Shown here piece by piece: positions 1 to 34,008 of a stretch of 64,000 nucleotides of DNA (position 1 is the first letter of the stretch; each line of letters opens with the position of its first letter). Both the position numbers and the translations under genes were made by a program. Origin of the DNA: Escherichia coli (GTDB lineage Bacteria > Pseudomonadota > Gammaproteobacteria > Enterobacterales > Enterobacteriaceae); the NCBI RefSeq assembly GCF_041248615.1, contig NZ_CP158426.1; one strand, written 5' to 3'. The notes beneath the pieces are model-generated. The model was not told the origin of the DNA. It ran no database searches and saw only the letters and a list, made by a program, of their open reading frames with translations.

Positions 1-428
1 ATGGGCTGTTTCAGAATAACGCGATAAACTGCCCAGGCGGCTGCATCTCCATGAACAAACAGTCCGTTATAGCTGCGATTGCCGTCGTAACTGAGACGAC
101 CTGTGCCTTCAATCAGATCCACTTCACCAAAGCCAAAACGGCGGATAACTTCCCGGATTGACCACGGCGTCCCTTTATACCGGTGCAGTTCGATGGCTGC
201 TTTTATAAGCATGCGGCGAACATCGTCCGATTCCGCCAGTTCCCAGCCATCGCCAGACAGTGAGAACTGCTCGCCCAGCCATGGCAGCGCGGAACTGTCG
301 ACGATATCGACGAGAAAGACCATCAGTACGCTCAGGTCGATGTTATCCAGCCGTCCTGCCAGTCTTCCCAGCGTCCTGAGACTGATATCACCCTCAAGCG
401 GTGGCGGGAGTTGTAATGGCTCAGTCAT
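1..428 (-). CDS. Phage tail protein I-like (Mu gp48 / P2 gpI family), C-terminus beyond window edge
   Basis: Manual minus-strand translation from ATG at 428 (ATGA overlap with upstream stop) gives MTEPLQLPPPLEGDISLRTLGRLAGRLDNIDLSVLMVFLVDIVDSS..., a tail protein I-like N-terminus; ORF runs off the left edge. Confidence 0.65.
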   Translation of the reverse strand, partial: MTEPLQLPPPLEGDISLRTLGRLAGRLDNIDLSVLMVFLVDIVDSSALPWLGEQFSLSGDGWELAESDDVRRMLIKAAIELHRYKGTPWSIREVIRRFGFGEVDLIEGTGRLSYDGNRSYNGLFVHGDAAAWAVYRVILKQP

Positions 429-1524
429 CAGACACTCCAGTCATGTTAAGAGTGATTGCCGTACAGTTTGCCCATTCGTTTTCTGCCACCACCCGCAGTG
501 CCGGTGTCACCAGTTCAACCTGGTACACCCCGGAAACGGACAATGCACTGATAATCTGGCTGGGGACAATATCGCGCCCCAGCGTGGCGGCACGTGATGC
601 CACCCAGTTCTGTATGGCGCTGTTAGCGGCATCTTTTACAGACCTGGCATCCTGATCACGATAGATCGTAATCCTGGCTTCAATGGTGTAATCCACCTTC
701 ACTGGTGTTTTAGCCCGCACTGTATCAGTGAGTGGCCTGACTTTCTCATCAGAGCAGAAACTCTCTACCAGCGTGAGAACACCGCCGTCCGGCAGACCGG
801 TACTGAGCAGCGGATACAGATCTACGGTCCCGGGAACCGGGGAAAGCACAGCAACATCGACAATGTTGGGATGGGCCTGCATGGCATGAAAGCGGTATGC
901 GCCACGGCTTCCGGCATTGGTGAATGACTCCGGGGCCAGCCTGATACGCTCCCGGAGCCTGTCATCGTCTTCCTGTTCTGAACCGCCGGAACTGGCCGTC
1001 AGATTGCTCACCAGCAGGTCGACGTTATCAATCTCATCGAGTAACTGACTGACCTGCGCAGGTTGCCAGCCGTTACCAGCGGTACCGGGTTCGGTACAGG
1101 TGGACGTGACATTGACCAGCAGCAATCCGGCCTTCAGTACCACATCTGTATCGGTGGCAAAAATAACGCTGTCGGAAGCGCTGACGCGGGTGCCTGCCGG
1201 GATCAGCACATCAATGGTCAGTGCCTCATCCACAGAGAACTGAAGTGTGGTGGTGGCAGGCTGCGCGGCAAGGCGGTATACACCAACCAGTTCTCCGAGG
1301 TAATCAATCATCGGCTCTCGTGAAAAGGCGACCAGATTCTGCTTTGCTGCCTCCTGTACCGCAACCCTGACCAGCATTTCGCGATAGGCCCACAGATCAA
1401 TCAGCAGACGTTCTGCCTGTGCCGGGTACAGCGTTTTGCCGGTATCCGCTTCATACTTCGCAATCATTTCTGCCGTGATTTTGTCGGCATCGCGTTCAAT
1501 AAAATCGGGTTCTGTCAGCGCCAT
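421..1524 (-). CDS. Baseplate J-like protein (Mu gp47 / P2 gpJ family)
   Basis: 367-aa ORF; position after the gp25-like gene in a baseplate block; recalled similarity to baseplate J family. Confidence 0.8.
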   Translation of the reverse strand: MALTEPDFIERDADKITAEMIAKYEADTGKTLYPAQAERLLIDLWAYREMLVRVAVQEAAKQNLVAFSREPMIDYLGELVGVYRLAAQPATTTLQFSVDEALTIDVLIPAGTRVSASDSVIFATDTDVVLKAGLLLVNVTSTCTEPGTAGNGWQPAQVSQLLDEIDNVDLLVSNLTASSGGSEQEDDDRLRERIRLAPESFTNAGSRGAYRFHAMQAHPNIVDVAVLSPVPGTVDLYPLLSTGLPDGGVLTLVESFCSDEKVRPLTDTVRAKTPVKVDYTIEARITIYRDQDARSVKDAANSAIQNWVASRAATLGRDIVPSQIISALSVSGVYQVELVTPALRVVAENEWANCTAITLNMTGVSDD

Positions 1525-1862
1525 AGCAACTCCTGAGTCCGGGTCTGTCCGTCTGAGCCTTTCCAGCTCACCCGGAGCGTAAGATGTTCGCCGTCGACGG
1601 CGGGTTTAACTGACATAAGCTGGCAGCGGGGCTCCCAGCGTCGGATGGCATCGACGGATTCGCGCACCACATGCGGAATGGCCCGGTCTACAGGCCAGTC
1701 GATATAAAGATGCAGATTGCTGCCGAACTCCGGGCGATGCGGGTCGCTGCCGCGGGGAGTCCGCAGGATAATTTGAATCGCCTGCCGGATATCATCCAGC
1801 CCCCGGACAATTTCGCCGGGAGCCTGCAGGGCTGGTTGCCAGAATACTGAGGTTGTTTTCAT
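1515..1862 (-). CDS. Baseplate wedge protein, GPW/gp25-like
   Basis: 115-aa ORF, size and sequence typical of the GPW/gp25 family; overlaps neighbours as in baseplate operons. Confidence 0.8.
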   Translation of the reverse strand: MKTTSVFWQPALQAPGEIVRGLDDIRQAIQIILRTPRGSDPHRPEFGSNLHLYIDWPVDRAIPHVVRESVDAIRRWEPRCQLMSVKPAVDGEHLTLRVSWKGSDGQTRTQELLWR

Positions 1863-1916
1863 GGGGGCAGTATTGCCCCCGTGCGGGAACGCTGATATTA
1901 AAGGCGTTTAAAAAGC

Positions 1917-2513
1917 TCAGTGGGAGTGGTGGCTGGAGTTTTCGCCATCAGACAACATACTGCCCGTGGCATGGGCATTCCCTTTAATCTCGATATTGCC
2001 ATGGATGGTCGCGGTAACACCTTCACCACCAGAACCCGCCATGCCTCCTTCGTAAATCAGCTTACCCCTGACACGCAGATCTCCGGTAAGTTCGGTTTCC
2101 GGTGCGTCAATCGTGGCTTTCTGTGTTTTCAATACCACATCAGCACCACACTCAATGACAATATGCTCAATGCCGCCCCGGATGATCAGAGTGTGCGTCT
2201 TCCGGTTGTAGCTGTACTCTGCACCATCAGCAAACCGGGTTCCCCGGATATTTTTGTCACTGAACGGTGGTTTATCGACGTCTGAATACACCGCGCCCAG
2301 AATAACACCATCCTCGCCGTTGGCATCGAGCAGCACCTCAACCTGCTCCCCCACGTCAGGGAGCCAGTAATCTTTGTTATCCTGGGTATTGCGCTGCAGC
2401 ACGTTAAGCCAGTTTGTGCGCAGGTTATCGCATTCAGGCAGACGAACGCGGGCCTGAACCCTGTCGGCATCAACGGCACTGACCGTACCGACCTGACGAG
2501 TGACACCAGTCAT
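1917..2513 (-). CDS. Baseplate assembly/spike protein V-like
   Basis: 198-aa ORF with Gly-rich C-terminus; position between D-like and W-like genes. Confidence 0.75.
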   Translation of the reverse strand: MTGVTRQVGTVSAVDADRVQARVRLPECDNLRTNWLNVLQRNTQDNKDYWLPDVGEQVEVLLDANGEDGVILGAVYSDVDKPPFSDKNIRGTRFADGAEYSYNRKTHTLIIRGGIEHIVIECGADVVLKTQKATIDAPETELTGDLRVRGKLIYEGGMAGSGGEGVTATIHGNIEIKGNAHATGSMLSDGENSSHHSH

Positions 2514-32962: not shown

Positions 32963-32990
32963 TGCCCTTTAATAAATATCTGTTTTTCAG

Positions 32991-33022
32991 AAAGCGCAAT
33001 GGATAACCTGTTGCGCTTTTTT
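32991..33022 (+). terminator. Intrinsic terminator after the early operon
   Basis: aagcgcaa...ttgcgctt stem followed by tttttttatt. Confidence 0.65.
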
Positions 33023-33057
33023 TATTCTTGCAGGAAAAGCATATCACCGGAGGAAAT

Positions 33058-33681
33058 ATGTTTGATGCATCCCTGCTGAATCTGCCGTGGGCAACACTGG
33101 TGACACTGACCAGTGGATACATCGGCTATTTTATTGCGAACGTGGGCCTGAAAGACCATCACAAGCCCATCGAGGTGACATTTACGACGCTGATTTTTGG
33201 CCTGCTGTCAATGATGGTTTACCAGGCTGTTATGTGGGCAGGTCTGAATTCGTGGCTTGCGACACCACCAGCGCTTCTTTGCGCTTTTATTTACGGTGCA
33301 TTGTGGCGCAGATACGGTCGCAAATGGATGTACAGATTCCTGTGGAATCATGATATTTCGTGGTCTGATGACACCAGCTCAGCATGGCAGTCATTGTTCA
33401 ATCAGATGGATTTCACTTTTTCTGAAATCTATGTATATCTTAAGGATGGCTCTGTTTTACTTTCACTAGCACCCGGGCGATTTGCAGGACGGCCTAACGG
33501 TCCTGTCACGTTAGGTAATAAGGGAGATATAATCTTATACGTCACGCACCGGACTACAGTCGGGAGCAATATCTGGACAGAATGCGATAGTGGTGTGGCA
33601 GATGACGGATGGGGAACTCTGGCAACCTATATACCTGCAGAACAGATTGCCAGAGTTGATATCCGACGAGTTTGTCGGTAA
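33058..33681 (+). CDS. Membrane protein of unknown function
   Basis: Start at ATG 33058 after ggagg; three N-terminal hydrophobic helices followed by a soluble domain. Confidence 0.55.
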   Translation: MFDASLLNLPWATLVTLTSGYIGYFIANVGLKDHHKPIEVTFTTLIFGLLSMMVYQAVMWAGLNSWLATPPALLCAFIYGALWRRYGRKWMYRFLWNHDISWSDDTSSAWQSLFNQMDFTFSEIYVYLKDGSVLLSLAPGRFAGRPNGPVTLGNKGDIILYVTHRTTVGSNIWTECDSGVADDGWGTLATYIPAEQIARVDIRRVCR

Positions 33682-34008
33682 TACCATCAGGCATGAACAC
33701 TACTTCTTATCTTTGAGTGACGATTGCTCTGGCTTGTTTGATGTGTCTGACGAACTCTTTTTCTTGCGCGAGTTGATGACAGTTGCAACAACTAGGCCCT
33801 CAGGCTTTTCACTGGAGTCAAAAGTGTCACGTTTGTTATTGTTAGTGGCCATTGGAATCATCCTTTTTTGTTACGGATCATGTTTCAGCAAACTCGATTC
33901 TAAGTTGCCAGGAAGGATGATTTCAATGCCCGACTTATCTATCGTATAGCGGAAAAGAATTTCAGTTTTGTTCACCAGAACCCGTGGTAACCCACTCCAA
34001 TTCGTTAT

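What the first reader, a model, noticed from the sequence alone, without database searches (positions are those of the whole stretch)
1..33700. Transposable prophage with divergent early and late arms
Mu itself transcribes early and late genes in the same direction. Here the early genes (Cro/Ner-like, transposase A, B, gam, gemA, mor) run rightward from about 24.1 kb, while the complete late module (lysis, DUF3486 protein, terminase, portal, F/G/I/T-like head genes, sheath, tube, tape measure, baseplate) runs leftward from 21.3 kb. The transposase is a 589-aa rve-type DDE enzyme rather than a full-length MuA. From memory, this divergent layout with a shorter DDE transposase matches what has been described for BcepMu-type phages and their enterobacterial prophage relatives. 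The left end of the element lies outside the window.
Basis: partly seen in the sequence, partly recalled or inferred. Interest (0 to 1): 0.5.

Follow-up and report, generated by a model that had tools for sequence, protein, structure and literature searches.

The report
BcepMu-like transposable prophage in E. coli
This is one complete 37.6-kb transposable prophage of the known BcepMu type, a common E. coli prophage that here has jumped into a gene of another, lambda-like prophage, so the finding is correct but ordinary.

Summary
The observation and the interpretation both hold. The window is E. coli NRZ14408 chromosome (NZ_LT599825.1, 4547546-4611545).

- **One element, mapped ends.** Window 1-34049 is the right-hand 34 kb of a single 37,649-bp element (window -3599 to 34049). 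Comparison with two uninterrupted sites gives 5'-TG...CA-3' termini, a 6-bp target duplication (TCTTCA), and two GNGATAAAT repeats 22-23 bp apart at each end, in inverted orientation.
- **BcepMu type, not Mu type.** Both arms are collinear, gene for gene, with Burkholderia phage BcepMu. The transposase is 68% identical to BcepMu gp09 and the AAA ATPase 59% identical to gp08. Neither shows BLASTP similarity to MuA or MuB.
- **Not two elements.** No end-like sequence lies between 21.3 and 24.1 kb. A second insertion in another strain has the same termini and its own 6-bp duplication.
- **Common and already catalogued.** Relatives occur in about 12% of complete E. coli genomes. Phage PhiKM (about 95% identical) is filed in GenBank under Bcepmuvirus.

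Corrections: the right end is 34049, not 33700, and the "B" gene is an ExeA-like ATPase.

Additions:
- Four conserved candidate late promoters and a single Mor-family activator.
- A terminase cassette swapped in from another transposable-phage lineage.
- A Mu-like Gam and a frameshifted Gin-like invertase.
- Insertion inside a lambdoid prophage.

The prophage is already known, so interest is low.

The parts
1..34049 (.). Part of the transposable prophage that lies in the window. The whole element is window -3599..34049 (37,649 bp).
   Evidence: Junctions mapped against uninterrupted YadA-like genes in strains GF4 and LH50-c.
34007..34049 (-). Right (Mor-side) terminus: ...ATCA-3' end with two GTGAGATAAAT/ATGAGATAAAT repeats 22-23 bp apart. 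These are putative transposase-binding sites, mirrored at the left end outside the window.
   Evidence: BcepMu termini have the same TGAW-N7-GNGATAWWT x2 layout.
34050..34055 (.). Right copy of the 6-bp target-site duplication TCTTCA. The left copy is at window -3605..-3600.
   Evidence: Empty site reads ...CCTGTTCTTCACAAGC...; both junctions carry TCTTCA.
1..8192 (-). P2-like tail/baseplate genes: gpI (..428), gpJ 421-1524, gpW 1515-1862, gpV 1917-2513, gpD 2510-3664, gpX 3652-3864, gpU 3864-4748, tape measure 4748-7699, tail assembly chaperone 7857-8192.
   Evidence: 31-63% identity, collinear with BcepMu gp41-gp51; RefSeq names.
8290..12010 (-). Tube 8574-9098, sheath 9095-10522, and head-tail connector genes (Gp37 10763-11227, gp36 11227-11673, DUF2190 11675-12010).
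   Evidence: Sheath 76% and tube 67% identical to BcepMu gp39/gp40.
12021..17073 (-). Mu-type head genes: capsid 12021-12974, protease/scaffold 12984-14099, G 14314-14772, F 14775-15596, portal 15577-17073.
   Evidence: Pfam Portal_Mu and Phage_Mu_F; 41-62% identity to BcepMu gp29-gp34.
17073..18934 (-). Terminase cassette: TerL 17073-18389 (438 aa) and Mu gp27-type small subunit 18386-18934. This is a swapped-in variant.
   Evidence: Pfam Terminase_6N/6C and Phage_Mu_Gp27. No nucleotide match to PhiKM over 17137-18940. Only 23% identity to BcepMu TerL. Present in 19 of 5426 genomes. Closest is Pasteurella Mu-like phage AFS-2018a at 65%.
18937..21301 (-). Lysis cassette and small late genes: two small genes 18937-19574, Rz-like spanin 19571-20224, SLT endolysin 20214-20948, holin 20951-21301.
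21433..24016 (.). Central region between the arms: hypothetical genes 21433-21981 (+), 21957-22361 (-), 22360-22575 (+); Dam methylase 22768-23532 (+); Cro/CI-type HTH repressor 23651-24016 (-).
24038..24058 (+). Candidate early operator/promoter: 16-bp palindrome ATACACATTTGTGTAT (7-bp arms) overlapping a TATAAT hexamer, lying between the repressor gene and the first early gene. A half-site copy is at 24009-24019.
   Evidence: Function is inferred from position only.
24105..25900 (+). First early genes: BcepMu gp16-family DNA-binding protein 24105-24293, IclR-type HTH 24347-24655, DUF3102 24666-25583, small gene 25583-25900.
   Evidence: NCBIfam TIGR04111 95.5 bits against a cut-off of 34; Pfam; homologues of BcepMu gp16, gp12 and gp10.
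25916..27685 (+). 589-aa rve-type DDE transposase.
   Evidence: Pfam rve 35.7 bits against 32.6. 68% identity over 581 aa to BcepMu gp09, which is annotated 'Tn552/IS1604 rve transposase'. No similarity to MuA.
27696..28862 (+). ExeA-family AAA_22 ATPase, a positional analogue of MuB.
   Evidence: Pfam AAA_22 E=3.6e-20; 59% identity to BcepMu gp08; no similarity to MuB.
28865..33681 (+). Rest of the early arm: Gam 29162-29692, small genes, DUF2786/DUF7168 30786-31469, GemA 31894-32343, Mor 32315-32701, hypothetical 33058-33681.
   Evidence: Pfam Phage_Mu_Gam, GemA and Mor. Gam is 61.5% identical to Mu Gam and has no BcepMu hit. There is a single Mor/C-family gene.
21328..21371 (-). Candidate late promoter 1 (upstream of holin): YTAA-N6-TTAAWATC-N19-CANNCTG.
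14129..14172 (-). Candidate late promoter 2 (upstream of the protease/scaffold gene).
   Evidence: The upstream half is nearly identical to BcepMu sequences upstream of gp21 and gp32.
8219..8262 (-). Candidate late promoter 3 (upstream of the tail assembly chaperone and tape measure genes).
1868..1911 (-). Candidate late promoter 4 (upstream of gpW, baseplate and fibre genes). It was not used to define the pattern and has one mismatch.
   Evidence: The same motif lies upstream of BcepMu gp49.
14236..14267 (-). Hairpin followed by a T-run between G and the protease gene, probably a terminator. Its loop TTTATAAAGG is conserved in BcepMu.
   Evidence: conservation; fold, -19.6 kcal/mol.

Best explanation
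Window 1-34049 is most of one 37,649-bp temperate, transposable myovirus prophage of the BcepMu type.

**Shown.**
- It is a single element with 5'-TG...CA-3' termini. Each end carries two inverted copies of a GNGATAAAT repeat, and the element is flanked by a 6-bp target duplication.
- It sits inside a YadA-like gene of a lambdoid prophage.
- Its gene order and orientation match BcepMu in both arms.

**Inferred mechanism.**
1. A Cro/CI-type repressor (23651-24016, - strand) holds the rightward early promoter shut. It probably acts at a palindromic operator at 24038-24053.
2. On derepression the early operon is transcribed rightward. It makes the gp16-family DNA-binding protein, the rve DDE transposase, the ExeA-like AAA ATPase (target-DNA partner, as MuB, Tn552 p271 and TnsC are), Gam, GemA and lastly Mor.
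3. The transposase binds the terminal repeats and inserts or replicates the genome at many chromosomal sites, with 6-bp staggered cuts.
4. Mor, the only Mor/C-family activator in the element, then turns on four leftward late promoters at about 21.35, 14.15, 8.24 and 1.89 kb. Each has a YTAA-N6-TTAA dyad centred about 42 bp upstream of the predicted start, no -35 element, and a CANNCT -10.
5. These promoters drive lysis plus packaging, head, tail, and baseplate/fibre genes.
6. A Mu gp27-type small subunit and a TerL package integrated copies by headful, together with flanking host DNA.
For: **Ends and duplication.**
- BLAST against two empty sites gives a 6-bp overlap, and the junction sequences were read directly.
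- A second, independent insertion between proY and malZ in strain CFS3292 has the same termini and its own 6-bp duplication, ATGCAT.
- The terminal repeat occurs only at the two ends, apart from one isolated interior match at 24994. BcepMu termini have the same layout.
- No end-like site lies in 21.3-24.1 kb.

**Synteny.**
- 35 of 55 proteins hit BcepMu collinearly and with the arms on opposite strands. Examples: transposase 68%, ATPase 59%, sheath 76%, portal 58.5%.
- PhiKM matches over 85% of the element at about 94.5% identity. KP12_2 matches over 69% at about 84%.

**Domains.** rve, AAA_22, Phage_Mu_Gam, GemA, Mor, Phage_Mu_Gp27, Terminase_6N/6C, Portal_Mu and Phage_Mu_F, and the BcepMu_gp16 family.

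**Not Mu.** No MuA or MuB similarity. Cov x id to Mu DNA is about 2%.

**Arms co-occur.** The baseplate region is in 637 of 5426 complete E. coli genomes and the transposase region in 639.

**Late promoters.**
- The full pattern has 4 matches, all on the - strand in the gaps upstream of late gene blocks, against 0.01 expected by chance.
- All four are kept in PhiKM, KP12_2 and two other prophages while their spacers diverge.
- Related sites lie upstream of BcepMu gp21, gp32 and gp49.
- Only one Mor/C-family gene is present.

**Literature.** BcepMu has two divergent clusters, a transposase of the Tn552-IS1604 family unrelated to MuA, a P2-like tail cassette, and terminal CA dinucleotides (PMC2771037; PMC2628397).
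Against: - There is no experimental evidence here that this copy is inducible or transposes.
- The Gin-like invertase at the left end is frameshifted.
- The terminase cassette is not the BcepMu/PhiKM type.
- Nucleotide similarity to BcepMu itself is low, about 17% as coverage times identity.
- One relative (CUVET21-PYO5) has non-matching flanks and no duplication. That is expected after rearrangement between copies, but it is not a simple insertion.
- The promoter pattern was derived from three of its four sites. The consensus sigma-70 scan found no promoter enrichment in 20.8-24.8 kb.
- Candidate promoter 4 ends only 6 nt before the annotated gpW start codon.
- DDE catalytic residues were not mapped.
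Confidence: 0.9

Rival explanations
1. Two different mobile elements inserted side by side: a P2/Mu-like late-gene element on the left and a transposon-like early-gene element on the right.
For: The arms are divergent and separated by 2.8 kb of mixed-orientation genes. GC drops to 0.49-0.51 across 21-25 kb.
Against: - Terminal repeats and one 6-bp duplication bracket the whole 37.6 kb.
- No end-like sequences lie in 21.3-24.1 kb.
- The same complete layout occurs at another chromosomal site with its own duplication, in the phage records PhiKM and KP12_2, and in BcepMu.
- Both arms occur in essentially the same number of genomes, 637 against 639.
Confidence: 0.01
2. A true Mu-family (Muvirus) prophage whose early region has been inverted.
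For: Several genes show similarity to Mu: Gam 61.5%, GemA 36%, Mor 31%, F 47% and the N-terminus of the invertase 83%. Pfam assigns Mu-type families to the head genes.
Against: - There is no MuA or MuB similarity.
- Only 10 of 55 proteins hit Mu, and DNA similarity is about 2%.
- The tail genes are P2-like, as in BcepMu.
- The duplication is 6 bp. Mu makes 5 bp, which I state from established knowledge.
- The inverted layout is the ancestral state of the BcepMu group.
Confidence: 0.01
3. The same BcepMu-like element, but a fixed, non-inducible remnant that no longer transposes or makes virions.
For: - The invertase is frameshifted.
- The gene at 21433-21981 is shorter than in relatives, 182 aa against about 242 aa.
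- The terminase cassette is a rare variant.
- No induction data exist.
Against: - All transposition, regulatory, lysis, head and tail ORFs are full length relative to PhiKM, KP12_2 and BcepMu.
- Both termini and the duplication are intact.
- TerL has complete ATPase and nuclease domains. Its closest phage relatives are five other Mu-like or transposable-phage records, at 54-65% identity.
- Invertase loss only locks the host range.
Confidence: 0.25

Closest known systems
Escherichia phage PhiKM (PQ738613; GenBank taxonomy Bcepmuvirus) and the equivalent prophages in about 12% of complete E. coli genomes
   Same: Same gene order in both arms. About 94.5% nucleotide identity over 85% of the element. 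Same transposase, ATPase, Gam, GemA, Mor, lysis, head and tail genes. The same four late-promoter motifs.
   Different: - The terminase small and large subunit genes (window 17137-18940) have no nucleotide match in PhiKM.
- The PhiKM record lacks the invertase/alternative-fibre segment and the last 1.4 kb of the right end.
- The tape measure gene here carries an internal duplication of about 290 bp.
Burkholderia phage BcepMu (AY539836), type of the BcepMu-like viruses
   Same: - Two divergent clusters, with the lysogeny control region at the interface.
- Tn552/IS1604-type rve transposase (68% identity) with an ExeA-like ATPase (59%) beside it.
- gp16-family protein, GemA and a single Mor.
- Holin, SLT endolysin and Rz lysis cassette.
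- Mu-type head genes and P2-type tail genes.
- TG...CA termini with two GNGATAWWT repeats per end.
- Related motifs upstream of the holin, protease and gpW genes.
   Different: - DNA similarity is only about 17% as coverage times identity.
- TerL is 23% identical.
- The E. coli element adds a Mu-like Gam, a Dam methylase, and a Gin-like invertase with an alternative fibre segment. BcepMu is reported to have no tail-fibre inversion system (PMC2771037).
- It lacks detectable matches to BcepMu's gp03 SSB, gp04 HU and gp53 acyltransferase.
Escherichia phage Mu (AF083977)
   Same: A transposable temperate myovirus of about 37 kb with TG...CA ends. It shares Gam, GemA, the Mor family, gp27-type small terminase, Mu-type portal, F and G, a Gin-type invertase and four late promoters.
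   Different: - Mu's early and late genes are co-oriented.
- MuA and MuB are not detectably similar to the proteins here.
- Mu has a two-step Mor then C cascade, against one activator gene here.
- The tail genes are of a different type.
- The duplication is 6 bp here; Mu's 5 bp is established knowledge, not tested here.
Tn552 / Tn5053 / Tn7-type transposition modules (rve DDE transposase plus AAA ATPase partner)
   Same: An rve transposase is followed directly by an AAA_22 ATPase. BcepMu gp09 is annotated and described as Tn552/IS1604 family. From memory, Tn552 makes 6-7-bp duplications, which would fit the 6 bp seen here.
   Different: Here the module drives a whole phage genome. Direct similarity to Tn552 proteins was not tested. 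NCBIfam gives only sub-threshold IS481 and IS21 hits.

Membership tests
BcepMu-like transposable phages (Bcepmuvirus in the broad sense) | Genome in two divergent clusters, early/transposition against lysis/morphogenesis, with lysogeny control at the interface | tested here: met
   Late genes hit BcepMu 11.6-33 kb on one strand and early genes hit 0.4-9.1 kb on the other. The layout is described in PMC2771037.
BcepMu-like transposable phages (Bcepmuvirus in the broad sense) | Transposase of the Tn552/IS1604 rve type, homologous to gp09 and not to MuA | tested here: met
   68% identity over 581 aa to gp09; Pfam rve above its cut-off; no significant alignment to MuA.
BcepMu-like transposable phages (Bcepmuvirus in the broad sense) | ExeA-like AAA ATPase directly downstream of the transposase (gp08) | tested here: met
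   59% identity over the full length; AAA_22.
BcepMu-like transposable phages (Bcepmuvirus in the broad sense) | Mu-type packaging and head genes joined to a P2-type tail cassette | tested here: met
   Phage_Mu_Gp27, Portal_Mu and Phage_Mu_F. Tail genes are collinear with BcepMu gp39-gp51, which are annotated as P2 FI, FII, T, U, D, V, W, J and I. Exception: TerL is a different transposable-phage type.
BcepMu-like transposable phages (Bcepmuvirus in the broad sense) | 5'-TG...CA-3' termini with repeated transposase-binding motifs | tested here: met
   TGAT...ATCA termini, with two GNGATAAAT repeats per end 22-23 bp apart. BcepMu ends have the same layout.
BcepMu-like transposable phages (Bcepmuvirus in the broad sense) | Insertion at unrelated sites with a short target duplication | tested here: met
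   TCTTCA in a YadA-like gene. ATGCAT between proY and malZ in CFS3292. Other right flanks differ between strains.
BcepMu-like transposable phages (Bcepmuvirus in the broad sense) | Replicative transposition and virion DNA carrying random host DNA at both ends | not testable with these tools
   This needs induction and virion sequencing. The chimeric flanks in CUVET21-PYO5 are only suggestive.
Genus Bcepmuvirus under the usual ICTV rule (about 70% nucleotide identity over the genome; the rule is recalled from memory) | At least about 70% genome-wide nucleotide similarity to BcepMu | tested here: not met
   Coverage 24.9% times identity 68% gives about 17%. GenBank nevertheless files PhiKM, which scores about 80% by the same measure against this prophage, under Bcepmuvirus.
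Muvirus (Mu, D108) | MuA transposase and MuB | tested here: not met
   Best BLASTP E-values are 0.2 for MuA and 2.3 for MuB.
Muvirus (Mu, D108) | Early and late genes co-oriented | tested here: not met
   The arms are divergent, whereas Mu's genes are all on the + strand.
P2-like phages (Peduoviridae) | P2-type capsid, portal and terminase genes with site-specific integrase | tested here: not met
   The head genes are Mu type. Integration is by a DDE transposase with a target duplication. Only the tail cassette is P2-like.

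The most novel reading that the evidence does not exclude
BcepMu-type phages run a one-step late switch. A single Mor-family activator, encoded at the far end of the rightward early operon, directly fires four leftward late promoters. Each promoter is built on a YTAA-N6-TTAA dyad centred about 42 bp upstream of the start, and this architecture is conserved from Burkholderia to E. coli. In addition, the terminase cassette (small plus large subunit) is exchangeable between transposable-phage lineages that use unrelated transposases. 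I could not check whether the 2004 BcepMu paper already reports these promoters.
Probability: 0.4. Interest if true: 0.3.

Novelty: already known. Interest (0 to 1): 0.15.

Why it matters
It matters little as a discovery. BcepMu-like prophages in enterobacteria have been described since 2004. Close relatives of this one sit in about one in eight complete E. coli genomes, and one is deposited as a phage (PhiKM).

The practical value is in annotation:
- The element now has exact ends, its target duplication and its insertion site inside another prophage.
- It has a testable set of four late promoters.
- It gives a clear example of terminase-cassette exchange among transposable phages.

Because such elements insert almost anywhere and can drive rearrangements, their exact boundaries help when comparing E. 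coli genomes.

Tried and rejected
- **Original BcepMu paper.** PMID 15184022 is not held. BcepMu's own duplication length and any published late-promoter motifs could not be checked.
- **Consensus sigma-70 and terminator scan of 20.8-24.8 kb.** It found no enrichment and missed the candidate early promoter.
- **Search of solved structures with the transposase.** It returned only marginal hits to retroviral integrase cores, E at least 0.009.
- **PADLOC on central and right-end genes.** Only the Dam methylase scored; no defence system was found.
- **PHROGs on ten small genes.** All fall in phage families of unknown function, apart from the Rz spanin and an NTP-pyrophosphohydrolase-like fragment.
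- **Fuzzy matching of the left end in CFS3292.** It failed because that end has diverged. The end was found by reading the junction directly.
- **End-like match at 35970-35989.** It lies outside the element and is at chance level: 3 matches against 1.46 expected.
- **TerL as an in-frame deletion.** The 438-aa TerL was first suspected to be a deletion of the 507-531-aa type. This was rejected. It has complete N and C domains and belongs to a different lineage.
- **Not attempted.** DDE residue mapping, structure prediction and large homologue searches, because the answer was already clear.

Full report
**Where the window comes from**

The window is identical to E. coli NRZ14408 chromosome NZ_LT599825.1, positions 4547546-4611545, + strand. 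I fetched the annotated record on both sides. Locus L003 minus 9000 gives window coordinates.

**Checking the observation**

The late arm is an unbroken block of - strand genes. It runs from the holin start at 21301 down to window 1 and beyond. In order:
- holin 20951-21301
- SLT endolysin 20214-20948
- Rz-like spanin 19571-20224
- two small genes
- DUF3486 / Mu gp27-type small terminase 18386-18934
- TerL 17073-18389
- Mu-type portal 15577-17073
- F 14775-15596
- G 14314-14772
- protease/scaffold 12984-14099
- capsid 12021-12974
- connector genes
- sheath 9095-10522
- tube 8574-9098
- tail chaperone 7857-8192
- tape measure 4748-7699
- P2-like U, X, D, V, W, J and I

The early arm is a + strand block starting at 24105:
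- a 62-aa DNA-binding protein
- an IclR-type HTH protein
- a DUF3102 protein and a small gene
- the 589-aa transposase 25916-27685
- an AAA ATPase 27696-28862
- Gam 29162-29692
- several small genes and DUF2786
- GemA 31894-32343
- Mor 32315-32701
- one further gene, 33058-33681

Pfam, NCBIfam and PHROGs support these names.

Between the arms lie five genes of mixed orientation. They include a Dam methylase (22768-23532, +) and a Cro/CI-type HTH repressor (23651-24016, -).

**Is it one element? Ends and target duplication**

In NRZ14408 the element interrupts a YadA-like gene. The C-terminal piece of that gene lies left of the element and the N-terminal piece lies right of it.

Strains GF4 and LH50-c carry the same gene uninterrupted, with the same neighbours. 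BLAST of these empty sites against L003 gives two arms that overlap by 6 bp.

Reading the junctions:
- The empty site is ...CCTGTTCTTCACAAGC...
- The left junction is ...GTTCTTCA|TGATGCGCC...
- The right junction is ...GTCTGATCA|TCTTCACAAGC...

This places the element at L003 5401-43049, which is window -3599 to 34049, or 37,649 bp. It has 5'-TG...CA-3' termini and a 6-bp duplication, TCTTCA.

Each end carries two copies of GNGATAAAT, 22-23 bp apart and starting 12 bp from the tip, in inverted orientation. Inside the element this motif occurs only once more (24994), away from any TGAT tip. A search for the whole end pattern finds nothing between 21.3 and 24.1 kb.

A second, independent insertion supports this. 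In strain CFS3292 the element lies between proY and malZ, with the same termini and its own 6-bp duplication, ATGCAT.

The baseplate region and the transposase region occur in 637 and 639 of 5426 complete E. coli genomes respectively.

**What it is**

I ran tblastn with 55 annotated proteins against BcepMu (AY539836). It gave 35 hits.
- All late genes hit collinearly on BcepMu's top strand (11.6-33 kb).
- All early genes hit collinearly on its bottom strand (0.4-9.1 kb).

Representative identities:

| Protein | BcepMu match | Identity |
|---|---|---|
| transposase | gp09 | 68% over 581 aa |
| ATPase | gp08 | 59% |
| sheath | gp39 | 76% |
| tube | gp40 | 67% |
| portal | gp29 | 58.5% |
| F | gp30 | 62% |
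| Mor | gp01 | 57% |
| GemA | gp02 | 43% |
| 62-aa protein | gp16 | 49% |

The 62-aa protein also passes NCBIfam's BcepMu_gp16 model, 95.5 bits against a cut-off of 34.

BcepMu's termini read TGAAGAGAGGTGAGATATTT... and TGAAGCGCGGCGCGATATTT..., each with a second repeat 22-23 bp inside. That is the same architecture.

Against Mu the picture is different.
- Only ten proteins hit.
- The transposase and ATPase show no significant BLASTP alignment to MuA or MuB.
- DNA similarity, as coverage times identity, is about 2% to Mu, 17% to BcepMu, 80% to PhiKM and 58% to KP12_2.

Enterobacterial relatives are also on record:
- Escherichia phage PhiKM is filed under Bcepmuvirus.
- Bcepmuvirus prophages are reported in ST131 E. 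coli (bioRxiv 10.1101/2022.05.07.487787).
- They are reported among inducible gut prophages (PMC12629997).
- They are reported in Salmonella (PMC7302871).

**How it most likely works**

Shown:
- the ends, the duplication and insertion at unrelated sites
- the gene content
- a single Mor/C-family gene, since Mu Mor and Mu C both hit only 32315-32701

Inferred, early control. The 88-bp gap between the repressor gene and the first early gene holds a 16-bp palindrome with 7-bp arms, ATACACATTTGTGTAT (24038-24053). It overlaps a TATAAT hexamer (24053-24058), and a half-site copy lies at 24009-24019. This is a plausible operator over the early promoter.

Inferred, late control. I compared the non-coding gaps of the late arm with each other and with BcepMu. 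They share a motif, YTAA-N6-TTAAWATC-N19-CANNCTG.
- It has four matches in the 64-kb window against 0.01 expected by chance.
- All four are on the - strand, in the gaps upstream of the holin (21328-21371), the protease gene (14129-14172), the tail chaperone (8219-8262) and gpW (1868-1911).
- Three sites defined the pattern. The gpW site is an independent hit with one mismatch.
- All four are conserved in PhiKM, KP12_2 and two other E. coli prophages, while the spacers between the conserved blocks differ.
- Related sequences sit upstream of BcepMu gp21, gp32 and gp49.
- If CANNCT is the -10 hexamer, the dyad is centred near -42 and there is no -35 element. I recall, but did not check, that Mor and C act on Mu's middle and late promoters at about this position.

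The simplest model is a one-step switch. Mor is made last from the rightward early operon and then fires four leftward late operons.

One caveat applies. The gpW site ends only 6 nt before the annotated start codon.

A hairpin with a T-run lies between G and the protease gene (14236-14267; -19.6 kcal/mol). It has a conserved loop in BcepMu and probably ends the first late transcript.

**Mosaic features that differ from BcepMu**

1. **Terminase cassette.** Window 17137-18940 has no nucleotide match in PhiKM, and 17137-18646 has none in KP12_2.
   - The 438-aa TerL is only 23% identical to BcepMu TerL but has complete ATPase and nuclease domains.
   - This variant occurs in 19 of 5426 genomes.
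   - Its nearest phage relatives are at 54-65% identity. They are Pasteurella phage AFS-2018a, Alteromonadaceae phage B23, Rhodovulum phage vB_RhkS_P1, and the Pelagibaca and Thiobacimonas phages. Pseudomonas phage B3 is at 31%. I recall these as transposable or Mu-like phages.
   - The swap point inside the small-subunit gene relative to KP12_2 suggests the two subunits travel together.
2. **Gam.** It is 61.5% identical to Mu Gam and has no BcepMu counterpart.
3. **Invertase and alternative fibre genes.** The left end, outside the window, carries a Gin-like invertase. Its N-terminus is 83% identical to Mu Gin, and the gene is frameshifted here. Alternative tail-fibre genes on the opposite strand lie beside it. 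BcepMu is reported to lack a fibre inversion system.
4. **Dam methylase.** It lies in the central region.

**Context**

The host gene belongs to the distal end of a lambdoid prophage that fills the rest of the window: tail fibre, Lom, J, tail, head, terminase and lysis genes. That prophage lies next to prfC and a DinI-like gene. So this is a prophage nested inside a prophage.

**Verdict**

The element is a member of a known, common group. I rate it as already known and of low interest.

The late-promoter set and the terminase exchange are the only points that might add something. I could not check them against the original BcepMu paper, which is not held.

Noticed in passing
window 34050-64000 (and on to about record 4625000): The transposable prophage sits inside a lambdoid prophage, splitting its YadA-like gene. 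The N-terminal piece is at window 34051-34863 and the C-terminal piece is left of the window. The lambdoid prophage lies next to prfC and a DinI-like gene.
   Followed up: partly
window 39459-40667: An IS1414 (IS256-like) transposase gene interrupts the J-type tail-tip gene of the lambdoid prophage, so that host prophage is probably defective. An IS1B copy lies further right, beyond the window.
   Followed up: no
window 17137-18940: The terminase small and large subunit cassette is replaced relative to PhiKM, KP12_2 and BcepMu. The variant is in only 19 of 5426 E. coli genomes. Its closest TerL (65%) is in Pasteurella Mu-like phage AFS-2018a.
   Followed up: yes
L003 5479-8847 (window -3521..-153, outside the window): A Gin-like invertase, with its N-terminus 83% identical to Mu Gin, is frameshifted. 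It lies next to tail-fibre, fibre-assembly and opposite-strand alternative fibre genes. This is a Mu G-segment-like host-range switch that BcepMu is reported to lack, and it is probably locked here.
   Followed up: partly
L008 (E. coli CUVET21-PYO5, NZ_CP116948.1 1445424-1483928): A near-identical copy has yphE on its left and an amino-acid permease/cueR region on its right. I recall these loci as far apart in E. coli K-12; this was not checked here. There is no target duplication, and the strain has several copies. This looks like a rearrangement between copies or an intramolecular transposition product.
   Followed up: partly
window 5349-5901: The tape measure gene contains an internal duplication of about 290 bp (93% identical copies). 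This helps explain 983 aa here against 821 aa in KP12_2 and CFS3292.
   Followed up: partly
window 14236-14267: A hairpin plus T-run lies between genes G and the protease. Its loop sequence TTTATAAAGG is conserved in BcepMu. The position corresponds to where Mu has its central gyrase site, a terminator and promoter PI.
   Followed up: partly
window 21433-21981: A central-region gene of unknown function (phrog_3787) is 182 aa here but about 242-247 aa in PhiKM, CUVET21-PYO5 and CFS3292. The locus varies by insertion or deletion.
   Followed up: no
window 33058-33681: A 207-aa gene lies between Mor and the right terminus. It has no Pfam or PADLOC hit (phrog_12870, unknown function). It is absent from the PhiKM record but present in other E. 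coli copies, and may be a cargo gene.
   Followed up: partly
window 35970-35989: A sequence matching the terminal pattern (TGAAAAACGCGGAGATAAAT, - strand) lies 1.9 kb outside the element in the DUF4376 gene. It is consistent with chance: 3 matches against 1.46 expected.
   Followed up: yes
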